From: an uncultured candidatus Porisulfidus sp.
GTDB lineage: Bacteria; Pseudomonadota; Gammaproteobacteria; Poriferisulfidales; Poriferisulfidaceae
Length of the DNA stretch: 64,000 nt
Direction: 5' to 3'
NCBI GenBank assembly: GCA_965242985.1
Contig: OZ251520.1
Coordinates: forward strand, 1,794,235 to 1,858,234
The translations under genes were made by a program, and so were the position numbers. Positions within the stretch are counted from its first letter, which is position 1; every line of letters begins with the position of its first letter. The notes under the pieces are model-generated. The model searched no databases, had not been told where the DNA came from, and saw only the letters and a program-made list of their open reading frames with translations. Below, piece by piece: positions 20,075 to 38,137 of the stretch.

Positions 20075-20811
20075 TGCACACCCTGTACCTGTCTTGGCGA
20101 ACCCGCAATTCGAGCCGCCGGTGGTTTCCGGTCGGCCGTCTCGATATCGAGGCCGAGCCCACTCCCAGCTACCGCTTCCGGTACATCCGCGGAGCGAAGC
20201 AGGCGCAGGACCAAGCGAAGTTTCCGTTATTGGTGGAGTTCCCCAAACTGGAGCGAAGCTACGAATTCGGTGAACTGTTCCCGGTCTTCCAGAACCGGGT
20301 CACGCGGCCGACGCGGCCGGACTTCTCCGACTACGTTCACAGCCTCGGACTGACCGAAGATGCCAGCGCATTCGATATCCTGTCGGTCAGCGGCGGCAGG
20401 CGCGTTACGGACCCCTACGAAGTGTTTCCAAAACTTGCGAAAAACGACGACGGAAGTTTTGCCTGCCGGTTTTTTCTGCACGGCGAAGAAAGCGCCGCCT
20501 CAACGGTGCGGGATCGCATCCAGCGGCTGCGGCCGGGAGAAACGCTGCTGGCGGTCGCAAGCCCGGACGGCACTACTTCCGGACCGGCGGTGCAACTGAA
20601 AACGAAAGACGGGCATGTGATCGGCTGGACACCGGACTATCTCGTGCCGGAATTGACTCCTGTTCTGGAAAATCCCGCGCAATGTTCCGCGCAAGTCGCG
20701 CAGATCAACCAGCGCCCGTACAAAAACCGGCATGTGCTCATCGAGATGCGCGGCAACTGGGGCGACCACGAACCCATGAGCGGCGCAGAACTCCAACCCT
20801 TGGTCGACTAA
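20074..20811 (+). CDS. HipA-N/HipS-like domain plus HIRAN-like domain protein
   Basis: WFPVGRL...YRFRY...LFPVFQNRV...RPDF then FFLHG...GETL...IGWTPDYL; TAATG overlap with the kinase. Confidence 0.75.
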   Translation: MHTLYLSWRTRNSSRRWFPVGRLDIEAEPTPSYRFRYIRGAKQAQDQAKFPLLVEFPKLERSYEFGELFPVFQNRVTRPTRPDFSDYVHSLGLTEDASAFDILSVSGGRRVTDPYEVFPKLAKNDDGSFACRFFLHGEESAASTVRDRIQRLRPGETLLAVASPDGTTSGPAVQLKTKDGHVIGWTPDYLVPELTPVLENPAQCSAQVAQINQRPYKNRHVLIEMRGNWGDHEPMSGAELQPLVD

Positions 20812-35766: not shown

Positions 35767-36024
35767 ATGACAATCGTCCGCAAGACCATCACCCTGACGG
35801 ACCAGCAGGAGCAGTGGCTCACGGCCAATGTCGAGGCCGGCCTGTTCGCGAACATCAGCGAGCACATCCGCGACCTGATCCGGAGCGCGCAGGAATCCGC
35901 GCGGGAATCGCAGGAAGAGATCGAGGCCATCCGGCAGAAATTGATCGAGGCCGAGCAGAGTCCGATCGTGCCGTTCGATCCCGAAGAGTTCAAGAAAGAG
36001 ATGAAAGCCAAATATGGCCGGTAA
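35767..36024 (+). CDS. parD: ParD-family (CopG/Arc/MetJ RHH) antitoxin
   Basis: TITLTDQQEQW...GLFANISEHIRDLIR; GGAGG RBS; overlaps parE. Confidence 0.85.
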   Translation: MTIVRKTITLTDQQEQWLTANVEAGLFANISEHIRDLIRSAQESARESQEEIEAIRQKLIEAEQSPIVPFDPEEFKKEMKAKYGR

Positions 36025-36334
36025 CGGACGCGGTTACCGGCTGCGCGCGACCGCGCGCCGGGACCTGCTGGAGATCTGGCGGCACACCCAAGCCCGGTGG
36101 GGAGAACGCCAGGCCGACAACTACCTCGACCAATTAGCCCGCGCGTTCCTGTTGCTCGCCCGCAACCCGGAACTCGGCGCCGCATGCGGCGGCGTTCGCG
36201 GATCCTACCGGAAGAAGCCGGCGGGCCGCCATGTCATCTATTACCGAATCGAAGACGGCGGCGTCATCGTGGCGCGCGTGCTGCATGGGCGCATGCAGGC
36301 GCGATGGCGCATCCGCGAGGCGGAGCGGAACTGA
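36014..36334 (+). CDS. parE: ParE/RelE-family toxin
   Basis: YRLRATARRDLLEIWRHTQARWGERQADNY...HVIYYRI...VARVLHGRM. Confidence 0.88.
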   Translation: MAGNGRGYRLRATARRDLLEIWRHTQARWGERQADNYLDQLARAFLLLARNPELGAACGGVRGSYRKKPAGRHVIYYRIEDGGVIVARVLHGRMQARWRIREAERN

Positions 36335-36732: not shown

Positions 36733-37455
36733 ATGGGCCTGCGCTGCCTGTGCCTCGAGCACGTCCCCGAGGAGGGCCCGGCCGCCGTCGCGGCCGGCCT
36801 CGCCGCGCTGGGCGCGGCGCTCGAGCGGCGGCGGCTGTGCGAAGACCCCCGCCTGCCGGCGCATCACGACGGCTACGACCTGCTGCTGGTGATGGGCGGC
36901 CCGATGGGCGTGCATGACGCCGGCGAACACCCGTGGCTCGCGGCCGAGCTCGCGTTCATCCGGGCGGCGCTGGCGCGCGGCAAGCGCGTGTTCGGCGTCT
37001 GCCTCGGCGCGCAGCTGCTGGCGCGCGCGCTGGGCGCCGCGGTGCGGCCCAACCCGCACCAGGAGATCGGCTGGTCGCCGGTGCGCCTGACGCCGGAGTT
37101 CCGCGCCGCGCCGGCCGGGCGCGGCCTGCCGGAGCGGCTGCCGGCGCTGCACTGGCACCGCGACACCTTCGACCTCCCCGCGGGCGCGGTGCCCGTCGGC
37201 GCGAGCGGCGGCTGCGCCAACCAGGGCTTCCTGCACGGCGCGCAGGCGCTCGGCCTGCAGTTCCACCTGGAGATCGGCCCGCGCGAACTGCCGGGCCTGC
37301 TTTCGGCGTTCGCCGATCAGCTGGCGCCGGACCGCTTCGTGCAGGACGCGGCGACGCTGGAGCGCGAAACCGCCGCGCAAGCGCCGCAGGCGCGCGAGGC
37401 GCTGCGCGCGCTGCTCGCGGGCTGGCTGGGTCCGGCGGCGGCCGGAACGGCGTGA
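36733..37455 (+). CDS. Class I glutamine amidotransferase
   Basis: VMGGPMG, GVCLGAQL nucleophile elbow, WHRDTF, QFHLE. Confidence 0.9.
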   Translation: MGLRCLCLEHVPEEGPAAVAAGLAALGAALERRRLCEDPRLPAHHDGYDLLLVMGGPMGVHDAGEHPWLAAELAFIRAALARGKRVFGVCLGAQLLARALGAAVRPNPHQEIGWSPVRLTPEFRAAPAGRGLPERLPALHWHRDTFDLPAGAVPVGASGGCANQGFLHGAQALGLQFHLEIGPRELPGLLSAFADQLAPDRFVQDAATLERETAAQAPQAREALRALLAGWLGPAAAGTA

Positions 37456-37556
37456 GGAACCGGCGCGGCGCGCCGGTTCCTAGAGTCGGGAGAGAATGCG
37501 CGGGGCCTCGCCGGAGGCCCCGCGCGGGGAAGCGGCCGGGATCGGCCGCGGCCCGC

Positions 37557-37952
37557 TCAGCTGGCGGTGCCGGCGCTGCCGGCGGAAAGCACGGAACTGA
37601 CGCAGCCGAAGCAGGACGGCGTCGAGCTCACGGTGCCGGCCGAACCCACGGAGCCCGCCGAACTGGCCGAACTGCCGCCGGCGACGGCGGACAGCGACTG
37701 ATCCGACATGGCCATGTTCGGATCCGCGGCCATCACCATGTGGAACACGTCCGGCGTGTTCACGTGCAGCTGCACCTCGGCGTCCTCCGGCTCGATGCGC
37801 AGGTTCCGCGCCGCCAGCTCGCCGCGCGGGTCGGCTTCGAGGCGCGCCCGGAAATCCGGGTCGTCCCGGTAGTCCCGCGCCGCGTTGATCAGGGACTGCA
37901 GCATGTCGCGCCCTTGCCCAGGCTCGAATGCTTGGATGGAAAATTCGCTCAC
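37557..37952 (-). CDS. NHLP (nitrile hydratase-like leader) RiPP precursor peptide
   Basis: GGAGGAG RBS before GTG; leader DDPDFRARLEADPR...VNTPDVFHMVM...MSDQSLSAVAGG; 38-aa Ser/Gly/Ala/Thr/Cys core. Confidence 0.85.
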   Translation of the reverse strand: MSEFSIQAFEPGQGRDMLQSLINAARDYRDDPDFRARLEADPRGELAARNLRIEPEDAEVQLHVNTPDVFHMVMAADPNMAMSDQSLSAVAGGSSASSAGSVGSAGTVSSTPSCFGCVSSVLSAGSAGTAS

Positions 37953-38109
37953 CGGTTCTGACTCCTCCGCTCAGCGCGGCGTTGTTTGTCGTCGCGGACG
38001 CCGCCGGGCGTCCGGTCGCTAGGGCGGCAAAGGTTACCAGAGAAACCGGCGCGGGCGGTGCCAGCACATCTGCGAACCCCGCGCCGCCGCGCCCCGGCGC
38101 GCCCGCAAT

Positions 38110-38137
38110 TTGACATCGCCCCCGGATTCCTTATGAT
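38110..38137 (+). promoter_or_regulatory. sigma70 promoter of rpmH (TTGACA-16 bp-TATGAT)
   Basis: Consensus -35 at 38110-38115 and -10 at 38132-38137, 25 bp before the rpmH ATG. Confidence 0.75.

What the first reader, a model, noticed from the sequence alone, without database searches (positions are those of the whole stretch)
37557..37952. Orphan NHLP-leader RiPP precursor with a 50% Ser/Thr/Cys core
After the double-glycine site SLSAVAGG comes the 38-aa core SSASSAGSVGSAGTVSSTPSCFGCVSSVLSAGSAGTAS (14 Ser, 3 Thr, 2 Cys). It is roughly symmetric around CFGC, with SAG(S/T) repeats. NHLP leaders mark proteusin and azole-type RiPPs modified by YcaO, radical SAM or LanM enzymes (established). 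None of these enzymes and no peptidase-ABC exporter is in the 64 kb, so maturation would be in trans. The strong GGAGGAG RBS and intact frame suggest expression. Likely an undescribed natural product (inference).
Basis: partly seen in the sequence, partly recalled or inferred. Interest (0 to 1): 0.75.

Follow-up and report, generated by a model that had tools for sequence, protein, structure and literature searches.

The report
Dispersed azole-type peptide precursor gene
This small gene is real. It encodes one of at least five scattered copies of a peptide-antibiotic-type precursor in a tiny sponge-symbiont genome. Its relatives in other bacteria sit beside enzymes that turn such serine-rich tails into ring-rich "dehydrazole"-like natural products, so it is a new member of a known kind.

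Summary
Window 37557-37952 (-) encodes a 131-aa protein with an NHLP-like leader, an invariant Gly-Gly, and a 38-aa core (14 Ser, 3 Thr, 2 Cys). The ORF has a GGAGGAG ribosome-binding site, coding-type GC3, and stays intact in every population allele.

It belongs to a family of at least 51 proteins whose cores are unusually conserved. In six loci from other lineages, family members lie inside clusters with a fused leader-binding/YcaO cyclodehydratase, a SagB dehydrogenase, a DUF4135 (LanM-type) dehydratase and NHLP-specific exporters. That is the enzyme logic of dehydrazoles (carnazolamide, 2023).

None of these enzymes is in the 64 kb. The gene is not a lone orphan either: the same 1,877,398-bp contig carries four more paralogues. 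Related sponge symbionts hold arrays of 2-3 copies at housekeeping loci.

A 12-nt motif (ATGTGCTGGCAC), about 115 nt upstream, precedes these arrays at four non-orthologous loci, which suggests co-regulation.

A relative (YidC 74% identical) does carry such a YcaO.

Verdict: a satellite precursor of a known RiPP kind. The product is undescribed and maturation in trans is unproven.

The parts
37557..37952 (-). Precursor gene, 131 aa (GTG start, TGA stop included)
   Evidence: ORF list. 51 homologues. GC3 0.88. Intact in all population alleles.
37674..37952 (-). Leader, residues 1-93, nitrile-hydratase-alpha-like (NHLP clan)
   Evidence: TIGR03793 E 1.9e-8, residues 29-93. Family profile hits PDB 8tb1 NHLP leader at E 1.8e-18 and nitrile hydratase alpha chains. 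AF2 predicts helices 13-47 at moderate confidence.
37674..37679 (-). Gly92-Gly93, predicted leader cleavage site (double-glycine type)
   Evidence: G93 is invariant and G92 is at least 90% conserved in 52 sequences. Homologous clusters carry a C39 peptidase-ABC exporter, TIGR03796, at 1020 bits.
37560..37673 (-). Core peptide, 38 aa, 50% Ser/Thr/Cys, four SAG(S/T) units
   Evidence: The design is conserved in cluster-embedded homologues. AF2 predicts it disordered.
37962..37968 (-). Shine-Dalgarno GGAGGAG, 9 nt before the GTG
   Evidence: Read directly. Conserved as GCGGAGGAG in the L003 orthologue.
38058..38069 (-). Conserved upstream motif ATGTGCTGGCAC, 117 nt before the start codon; candidate regulator site or promoter element
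   Evidence: The same motif lies 111-162 nt upstream of the leading gene of precursor arrays at four non-orthologous loci. All matches in the 28 fetched loci lie upstream of precursor arrays. The window has 2 matches against 0.17 expected.
38031..38039 (-). -10-like element TGgTAACCT, 21 nt downstream of the motif (inferred promoter)
   Evidence: Conserved in the window and in both L003 copies. Other loci have TATAGT, TACAGT, TATACT, TAGAAT or GATAAT at 30-33 nt. This is inference only; the consensus scan found no sigma-70 site on this strand.
37498..37525 (.). Perfect 12-bp GC hairpin (GCGCGGGGCCTC-GCCG-GAGGCCCCGCGC) between the convergent GATase gene and the precursor; terminator-like
   Evidence: Fold of the 96-nt stretch containing it: -58.5 kcal/mol, z -3.3. 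It is followed by AUUCUCUCCC on the precursor's strand. No classic U-run was found.

Best explanation
The gene encodes a genuine ribosomal-peptide precursor of the NHLP (nitrile-hydratase-like leader) clan. It is one of at least five dispersed paralogues in a roughly 1.88-Mb genome of a sponge-associated, probably gammaproteobacterial, symbiont.

By homology of both leader and core to precursors that sit inside biosynthetic clusters elsewhere, its expected fate is as follows (all steps inferred):
1. The folded leader is bound by a fused leader-binding/YcaO cyclodehydratase.
2. Selected Ser/Thr/Cys of the 38-aa core are cyclised to azolines and oxidised to azoles by a SagB-type flavoprotein.
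3. [quoted passage not shown]
4. The leader is cut after Gly-Gly and the product exported by the NHLP-specific C39-ABC / ABC / HlyD system.

Here the enzymes must act in trans. The dispersed precursor genes appear to be tied together by a shared 12-nt upstream motif.

Shown: gene, family, conserved core, cluster association in relatives, paralogues on the same contig, and the shared motif.
Inferred: transcription, the presence of maturases in this genome, and the chemistry.
For: Gene and family:
- The gene is real and under constraint. It has 51 homologues and GC3 of 0.88.
- Population alleles in sponge metagenomes keep the frame. One allele has 7 synonymous changes against 2 conservative replacements with an identical core. 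Another has an in-frame 9-bp insertion.
- Leader dN/dS is 0.42 against the orthologue.
- NHLP clan membership.

Cluster association in homologues:
- Six loci: L009, L013, L025, L027, L015 and L021/L022.
- Each carries YcaO and DUF4135; a SagB/ThcOx-type nitroreductase was also called in all but L015, where tblastn with the L009 SagB found none.
- The L009 enzymes score above NCBIfam cut-offs: TIGR03882 + TIGR03604, TIGR03605, TIGR03796 and TIGR03797.
- The cores of these cluster-embedded precursors have the same design, for example KSAGSAGTAGTAGCVSSASTTYGTVSSASSGGSAGSAS. They are 47-49% identical to the window protein over about 107 aa.

Chemistry precedent: PMC10676384.

Paralogues:
- The window protein P0292 lies on the 1,877,398-bp contig together with P0038, P0309, P0313 and P0330.
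- Arrays in close relatives sit at housekeeping loci.

Shared upstream motif.

Maturase in a relative: a relative whose YidC is 74% identical carries an L009-type YcaO on what is almost certainly the same 2,018,984-bp contig.

Dispersed NHLP precursors far from their enzymes are an established property of the family (PMC2887384).
Against: - No maturase or exporter lies within 64 kb.
- The genome could not be searched.
- None of the 120 best L009-type YcaO homologues lies on the 1,877,398-bp contig or on the contigs of its nearest relatives. This is a weak negative, because only 120 of 1,348 hits were listed.
- The genome is small (about 1.9 Mb), which leaves less room for a 15-kb cluster.
- The TIGR03793 score is below the curated cut-off.
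- Core dN/dS is about 1, though this rests on 11 differences and strong GC3 bias.
- I found no RNA data. The runs that hold the locus look like DNA.
- Haft et al. note that some NHLP-bearing species have no identified TOMM or lanthionine enzymes.
Confidence: 0.6

Rival explanations
1. The gene family is real and maintained, but this streamlined genome has no cognate YcaO/DUF4135 machinery. The NHLP-domain proteins would then act unmodified or be processed in some other way. Possibilities include secreted or surface Ser/Gly/Ala-rich peptides, modification by enzymes of another member of the sponge community, or slowly decaying relics.
For: - No enzymes lie within 10 kb of any array in the gammaproteobacterial sponge lineage.
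- No top-120 YcaO hit lies on the own contig or on its nearest relatives' contigs.
- The genome is small.
- Haft et al. record NHLP-bearing species without known maturases.
- Core dN/dS is about 1.
Against: - Five or more paralogues with an invariant Gly-Gly and the same core design are kept in a reduced genome and in several related genomes.
- The cores match those of cluster-embedded precursors.
- A shared upstream motif argues for regulated use.
- A relative at 74% YidC identity has the YcaO.
- The population alleles do not look like decay.
Confidence: 0.25
2. The precursor is matured in trans, but by a different enzyme class from that of its cluster-embedded relatives. Candidates are a ProcM-like class II lanthipeptide synthetase, a proteusin-type radical SAM epimerase/methyltransferase set, or a kinase that leaves phospho-Ser (phospeptin-like).
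For: - NHLP leaders are shared by several RiPP classes (PMC2887384; PMC9426513).
- Some homologous clusters add an rSAM-SPASM enzyme, an APH kinase and PhyH.
- A LanM-like enzyme without a cyclase can leave phosphates (PMC9259500).
Against: - The core has only 2 Cys, and the own-genome paralogue P0330 has none. Lanthionine rings therefore cannot be the common chemistry.
- There is no Asn-rich NX5N motif of the polytheonamide type.
- Every cluster I found for this precursor family has a YcaO and a DUF4135, and all but L015 also showed a SagB-type dehydrogenase.
Confidence: 0.1
3. Not a gene: a chance open frame in GC-rich DNA.
For: GC-rich genomes carry many long spurious ORFs; several overlap this region.
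Against: - Homologues extend down to 32% identity across phyla.
- The codon-position GC pattern is that of a real gene.
- Synonymous changes dominate in the population alleles.
- There is an SD site.
- The exact protein was called in independent assemblies.
Confidence: 0.02

Closest known systems
Dehydrazoles: carnazolamide pathway of Chryseobacterium carnipullorum (CcaA precursor, YcaO CcaB, dehydrogenase CcaC, DUF4135 dehydratase CcaM). Pei, Zhu & Nair, Nat Commun 2023 (PMC10676384)
   Same: - Long NHLP-type leader with a core rich in Ser/Thr/Cys.
- Homologues of the window protein sit beside YcaO + dehydrogenase + DUF4135.
- The paper notes more than 50 such clusters, mostly in Proteobacteria and Actinobacteria, some with several precursors and one with a Ser/Thr kinase homologue.
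   Different: - The window gene has no enzyme within 64 kb.
- Its core is Ser/Gly/Ala-rich with only 2 Cys, whereas the paper describes the CcaA C-terminus as Cys-rich.
- The relatives' clusters use a C39-ABC exporter and Gly-Gly cleavage rather than an S8 protease. They add APH and PhyH, and in L009 the DUF4135 protein (844 aa) shows no recognisable cyclase domain.
NHLP / TOMM precursor family TIGR03793 with the TIGR03794/03796/03797 export system. Haft, Basu & Mitchell 2010 (PMC2887384)
   Same: - Nitrile-hydratase-alpha-like leader ending in Gly-Gly near residue 90.
- Large paralogous families, with genes distant from the modification and export genes.
- Relatives' clusters carry TIGR03796 and TIGR03797 above cut-off.
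   Different: - The window protein scores 34 bits, below the 50.9 cut-off.
- The core is conserved across phyla rather than hypervariable.
Prochlorosins (Nif11-leader ProcA peptides matured by one ProcM)
   Same: Many dispersed precursor genes in a small genome, served (if at all) by one enzyme set acting in trans.
   Different: - Different leader family (Nif11) and lanthionine chemistry that needs Cys.
- The cores here are similar to each other and poor in Cys.
- This comparison rests on general knowledge and the abstract of PMC10783134.
srp proteusin clusters of sponge symbionts (SrpE/SrpC/SrpI) and the uncharacterised NHLP/YcaO/nitroreductase gene-cluster families of sponge microbiomes (PMC9426513)
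   Same: Sponge-symbiont origin, NHLP leader, YcaO-based chemistry in relatives.
   Different: - srp cores are tiny (about 5 aa, Cys-rich) and lack the dehydrogenase.
- Here the core is 38 aa and Ser-rich, and the relatives' clusters hold SagB and DUF4135.
Phospeptin (EmbA/EmbM), Paoli et al. 2022 (PMC9259500)
   Same: A LanM-like enzyme acts without making lanthionine rings.
   Different: - EmbM leaves phosphates and has no YcaO partner.
- I list it only as an alternative outcome for the DUF4135/APH enzymes.

Membership tests
NHLP leader peptide family (TIGR03793 clan) | N-terminal domain homologous to nitrile hydratase alpha subunit / NHLP model | tested here: met
   - TIGR03793 E 1.9e-8 but 34 bits, below the 50.9 cut-off.
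- 51 of 52 family members match, best E 1.3e-23.
- The family profile hits PDB 8tb1 'NHLP leader peptide family natural product' at E 1.8e-18 and NHase alpha chains at about 1e-17.
- Met at clan level; the single sequence is sub-threshold.
NHLP leader peptide family (TIGR03793 clan) | Gly-Gly type cleavage motif at the end of a leader of about 80-90 aa | tested here: met
   AVAGG at residues 89-93. G93 is invariant and G92 is at least 90% conserved.
NHLP leader peptide family (TIGR03793 clan) | Association with the NHLP export system (TIGR03794/03796/03797) | tested here: inconclusive
   - Absent from the window.
- Present beside homologues in L009, L013, L015 and L021, with TIGR03796 at 1020 bits and TIGR03797 at 857 bits.
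- The own genome could not be searched.
Dehydrazole-type RiPP precursors | NHLP-like leader plus core enriched in Ser/Thr/Cys | tested here: met
   The core is 50% S/T/C. This matches the description in PMC10676384.
Dehydrazole-type RiPP precursors | Encoded with, or served by, a YcaO cyclodehydratase and an azoline dehydrogenase | tested here: inconclusive
   - Not in the 64-kb window.
- YcaO is present in all six homologous clusters, and a SagB/ThcOx-type dehydrogenase in all but L015.
Dehydrazole-type RiPP precursors | DUF4135 (LanM-type) dehydratase acting on azole-containing core | tested here: inconclusive
   - Not in the window.
- A DUF4135 protein is present in all six homologous clusters. 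PF13575 E 9e-58; partial LanM TIGR03897 at 222 bits, below the 304 cut-off; LicM2 6st5 at E 5e-24.
Dehydrazole-type RiPP precursors | Product carries azoles and dehydroalanines | not testable with these tools
   This needs MS or NMR of the matured peptide.
Class II lanthipeptides (prochlorosin-like) | Cys residues available for lanthionine rings and a LanM with a zinc cyclase domain | tested here: not met
   - The core has 2 Cys, and the own-genome paralogue P0330 has none.
- Pfam finds only DUF4135 in the LanM-like protein of L009, with no LANC_like domain.
Polytheonamide-type proteusins | rSAM epimerase (PoyD-like) in the cluster and an Asn-rich NX5N core | tested here: not met
   - The core has no Asn.
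- Only one homologous cluster (L021) has an rSAM-SPASM gene; none is in the window.
Thiopeptides (thiocillin family NF033482) | LanB-type dehydratases and a [4+2] cyclase in the cluster | tested here: not met
   Nine of 52 members give weak NF033482 hits, best E 3.7e-6, from core composition. None of the homologous clusters lists such enzymes.

The most novel reading that the evidence does not exclude
The roughly 1.88-Mb symbiont genome has no YcaO/DUF4135 maturase at all, yet keeps five or more co-regulated NHLP precursors with a conserved Ser-rich core. The peptides would then be processed by enzymes of another member of the sponge community (cross-species RiPP maturation). Alternatively, they would have a function that needs no azole chemistry, with the ATGTGCTGGCAC element defining their regulon.
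Probability: 0.15. Interest if true: 0.75.

Novelty: new member of a known kind. Interest (0 to 1): 0.35.

Why it matters
- The case gives a concrete, testable substrate set for an uncharacterised and very abundant branch of YcaO/SagB/DUF4135 peptide pathways. That branch has about 1,350 YcaO homologues in metagenomes, many from sponges.
- It shows that in reduced sponge-symbiont genomes these precursors are multi-copy, dispersed among housekeeping genes, and share an upstream motif. Genome miners who score clusters only would miss them.
- The compound is undescribed, but the kind of chemistry and the 'precursors far from enzymes' layout are already known.

Tried and rejected
2. GTDB genome scan with the family alignment. 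The first alignment was too diverse. The second gave only three distant loci.
3. JGI metagenome scan. It gave one useless 1-kb hit.
4. Looking for the relatives' YcaO by matching 'longest contig' lengths and by looking up a multi-contig YcaO (P0105). This found another cluster of the same type, but not in the symbiont lineage.
5. Laying sponge-run contigs on a foreign YcaO locus.
6. RNA evidence. No RNA run holds the locus, and runs X1-X4 show even, DNA-like depth.
7. AlphaFold2 on the family alignment. Mean pLDDT was 52, too poor for a fold search.
8. Reading the upstream TGGCAC as a sigma-54 -24 box. I rejected this as unsupported because no GC is kept at the fixed -12 spacing.
9. The second window match of the degenerate motif (20360-20371). 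It lies inside a + strand CDS with no downstream gene on its strand, so I treated it as chance.
10. The adjacent GATase as a tailoring enzyme. I rejected this because it is convergent and absent from the other arrays.
11. dN/dS of the core. It is uninformative: 11 differences and extreme GC3 bias.

Full report
**Observation**

Window 37557-37952 (minus strand) is an intact 131-codon frame starting at GTG. It contains four SAG(S/T) units, two on each side of the central SCFGC. GGAGGAG lies 9 nt before the GTG.

GC by codon position is 0.66/0.55/0.88, the pattern of a real gene in this 70% GC DNA. The long overlapping plus-strand frame shows the inverse pattern and is spurious. A perfect 12-bp GC hairpin at 37498-37525 separates the gene from the convergent glutamine-amidotransferase gene.

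**What the protein is**

- NCBIfam TIGR03793 (NHLP leader) matches residues 29-93 at E 1.9e-8. The score of 34 bits is below the curated 50.9. Pfam gives only a faint NHase_alpha hit.
- The large protein collection holds 51 homologues, at 96% down to 32% identity.
- In their alignment Gly93 is invariant and Gly92 nearly so.
- Unusually for a RiPP, the core is conserved as well. The consensus is SSASSAGTxGSAGTxSxxPSCxGxxSSVSSAGSAGTA.
- 51 of the 52 sequences hit TIGR03793, best E 1.3e-23.
- A profile of the family finds the solved NHLP leader 8tb1 at E 1.8e-18, ahead of nitrile hydratase alpha chains.
- AlphaFold2 was poor (pLDDT 52). It placed helices in residues 13-47 and left the core disordered.

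Clan membership is therefore sound, even though the single sequence is sub-threshold.

**Context in the window**

- The gene sits between a GATase gene (36733-37455, +) and rpmH-rnpA-yidD-yidC-mnmE (from 38163, +).
- A ParD/ParE-like pair and rplU-rpmA-obg-proB-pepP-ubiH lie beyond.
- As tblastn queries I used every enzyme of four homologous clusters: YcaO, SagB/ThcOx, DUF4135, rSAM-SPASM, APH, PhyH, Asp/Arg hydroxylase, C39-ABC and ABC2. They hit nothing in the 64 kb except a generic ABC ATPase near 27.5-28.1 kb.
- The 'orphan within the window' statement is confirmed.

**Context of relatives**

Family members fall into two situations.

*(a) Inside clusters.* The loci are L009, L013 and L025 (one metagenome), L027, L015 (an Ilumatobacteraceae MAG) and L021/L022 (found through the YcaO). 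The precursors, 2-5 per cluster, lie beside:
- a roughly 780-aa fused protein with a leader-binding domain (TIGR03882) and a SagD-type YcaO (TIGR03604, 258 bits against a 219 cut-off);
- a SagB dehydrogenase (TIGR03605), called in every cluster except L015, where tblastn with the L009 SagB found none;
- an 840-1030-aa DUF4135 protein (partial LanM; no LANC_like domain found in L009; LicM2 E 5e-24).

Some clusters also carry:
- an APH-type kinase (L009, L013, L021/L022, and a fragment in L025);
- a PhyH dioxygenase (L009, L013, L021/L022);
- NHLP-specific exporters (L009, L013, L021/L022; a PCAT-type ABC and HlyD-like hit in L015). In L009, TIGR03796 scores 1020 bits, TIGR03797 scores 857 bits, and a HlyD-family protein is present.

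The cores of these precursors have the same design as the window core. One example is KSAGSAGTAGTAGCVSSASTTYGTVSSASSGGSAGSAS. They are 47-49% identical to the window protein over about 107 residues.

*(b) In arrays among housekeeping genes, with no enzyme within 10 kb.*
- Three copies lie at the very same rpmH|GATase site in a 75% GC relative (L001-L008).
- Three more lie between bamD/VapBC and rluD-pgeF-clpB in that same organism and in another sample (L017-L020).
- Two lie before infC-rpmI-rplT (L026).
- Four lie beside rpe/UDG (L011, L012).
- Five are in an alphaproteobacterial MAG (L014) and seven in a Phycisphaerales MAG (L016).

**The gene is not alone in its genome**

- Exact look-ups show that the window protein (P0292) and the window's YidC (P0363) lie on a contig of 1,877,398 bp.
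- P0038, P0309, P0313 and P0330 lie on a contig of that same length from the same sources. They are the four members of the rpe/UDG array.
- The five paralogues are only 36-56% identical to one another, yet all keep the leader-Gly-Gly-Ser/Thr/Gly/Ala core plan.
- The organism is a sponge symbiont, since several 'sponge metagenome' runs hold the locus.
- Its YidC is at most 55% identical to named Thioalkalivibrio/Ectothiorhodospira proteins. It is 92% identical to one on the 1,879,402-bp contig that carries L026.

**Signs of use**

- Contigs from four sponge runs give alternative alleles.
  - One has 10 substitutions: 7 synonymous plus D68E and M74L, with an identical core.
  - Another has 19 substitutions plus an in-frame 9-bp insertion that changes only the last residues. 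This is the 134-aa P0001 form.
  - The frame is intact in every allele.
- Against the orthologue in L003, the leader has dN/dS 0.42. The core is near 1, but this rests on 11 differences and strong GC3 bias suppresses dS.
- I found no RNA run, and the runs that hold the locus have even, DNA-like depth.

**A shared upstream element (new)**

- Aligning upstream regions revealed ATGTGCTGGCAC at window 38058-38069 (-), 117 nt before the GTG.
- The same 12-mer, with minor variants, lies 111-123 nt (162 in L011) before the leading gene of the arrays at four non-orthologous loci. These are rpmH, bamD, rpe/UDG and infC.
- It also precedes internal copies that follow a long spacer. It is absent before tightly packed internal copies.
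- With the pattern ATGYNYTGGCAY, every match in the 28 fetched loci lies upstream of a precursor array.
- The window has two matches against 0.17 expected. The second lies inside an unrelated CDS and is probably chance.
- -10-like hexamers follow at 21 nt (TGgTAACCT at the rpmH locus) or 30-33 nt.
- TGGCAC recalls a sigma-54 -24 box, but no GC is kept at the -12 spacing. A regulator site upstream of a sigma-70-type promoter is the more likely reading (inference, low confidence).
- Either way, the dispersed arrays look co-regulated.

**Comparison with what is known**

- The enzyme logic of YcaO, dehydrogenase and DUF4135 acting on an NHLP precursor with a Ser/Thr/Cys-rich core is that of the dehydrazoles.
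  - In carnazolamide biosynthesis, CcaB/CcaC install eight azoles.
- More than 50 related clusters were noted, one with a Ser/Thr kinase homologue (PMC10676384).
- NHLP precursors in large paralogous families, encoded far from their enzymes, were described at the outset. So was the fact that some NHLP-bearing species have no identified maturase (PMC2887384).
- Sponge microbiomes are known to be rich in uncharacterised NHLP/YcaO/nitroreductase clusters (PMC9426513).
- A LanM-like enzyme that stops at phosphorylation (phospeptin; PMC9259500) is a caveat for predicting the DUF4135/APH outcome.

**The open point**

- Weakly against: none of the 120 best of 1,348 YcaO homologues sits on the 1,877,398-bp contig or on its closest relatives' contigs.
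- For: a relative with 74% YidC identity carries an L009-type YcaO. Each protein occurs on a single contig of 2,018,984 bp from the same sources, almost certainly the same contig.
- Also for: five constrained paralogues persist in a reduced genome.

**Verdict**

- The gene is a new member of a known kind.
- I put 0.6 on in-trans dehydrazole-like maturation, 0.25 on 'no cognate machinery here', 0.1 on another enzyme class, and 0.02 on 'not a real gene'.
- Interest is modest (0.35). It is raised a little by the conserved core, the multi-locus arrays in a 1.9-Mb symbiont, and the shared upstream motif.

Noticed in passing
L009:10475-10729, L013:10471-10725, L025:10615-10869 (84 aa each); L021:4428-5045 (93 and 94 aa): Core-less 'leader-only' NHLP-domain ORFs are conserved in the homologous clusters. 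The 84-aa ORFs of L009 and L025 lie immediately upstream of the fused YcaO gene; L013 has one precursor in between, and the L021 pair lies about 5 kb upstream, before the rSAM gene. The L009 ORF matches TIGR03793 at E 2.3e-9. They end where the precursors' PPDPN motif begins. They may be a trans-acting leader or adaptor for the enzymes. I did not find this described in the papers I read.
   Followed up: partly
window 38058-38069 (-), and the upstream regions of L003, L011, L017, L019 and L026: A 12-nt motif, ATGTGCTGGCAC, is shared by the leading genes of dispersed precursor arrays at four non-orthologous loci. It may mark a regulon. The regulator is unknown, and the genome-wide distribution could not be checked.
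   Followed up: partly
window 37564-37568 and 37440-38100: Sponge-metagenome contigs show several coexisting alleles of the precursor, including an in-frame 9-bp insertion at the core's C-terminus (the 134-aa form, P0001). Assembly unitigs of runs X1 and X2 break exactly across this gene, which suggests strain-level polymorphism here.
   Followed up: yes
window 35767-36334 (+): A ParD-like antitoxin / ParE toxin pair, plus a small unknown ORF, lies between rplU and the GATase gene. It is absent from the syntenic locus of the 75% GC relatives (L001-L008).
   Followed up: partly
window 38110-38137 (+): A near-consensus sigma-70 promoter (TTGACA-16-TATGAT, 11 of 12 matches) for rpmH lies back to back with the precursor's upstream region.
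   Followed up: no
window 20360-20371 (-): A second match of the degenerate motif (ATGCGCTGGCAT, identical to the L026 copy-1 variant) lies inside the + strand HipS/HIRAN-like CDS of the defence island. It is probably chance.
   Followed up: partly
L018:12347-15585: Relative to L017, L018 has an IS1595-family transposase plus a 777-aa lipoprotein-like gene with no Pfam hit inserted between rluD and pgeF, just downstream of the precursor array. The homologous clusters L009 and L013 also carry a Zn_ribbon_IS1595 ORF next to their precursors.
   Followed up: no
whole contig (1,877,398 bp) and related contigs of 1,879,402 and 2,018,984 bp: The window belongs to a small (about 1.9 Mb), 70% GC genome of a sponge-associated, probably gammaproteobacterial, lineage. 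It has no named close relative: YidC is at most 55% identical to Ectothiorhodospiraceae proteins. The 2.02-Mb relative carries an L009-type fused YcaO.
   Followed up: partly
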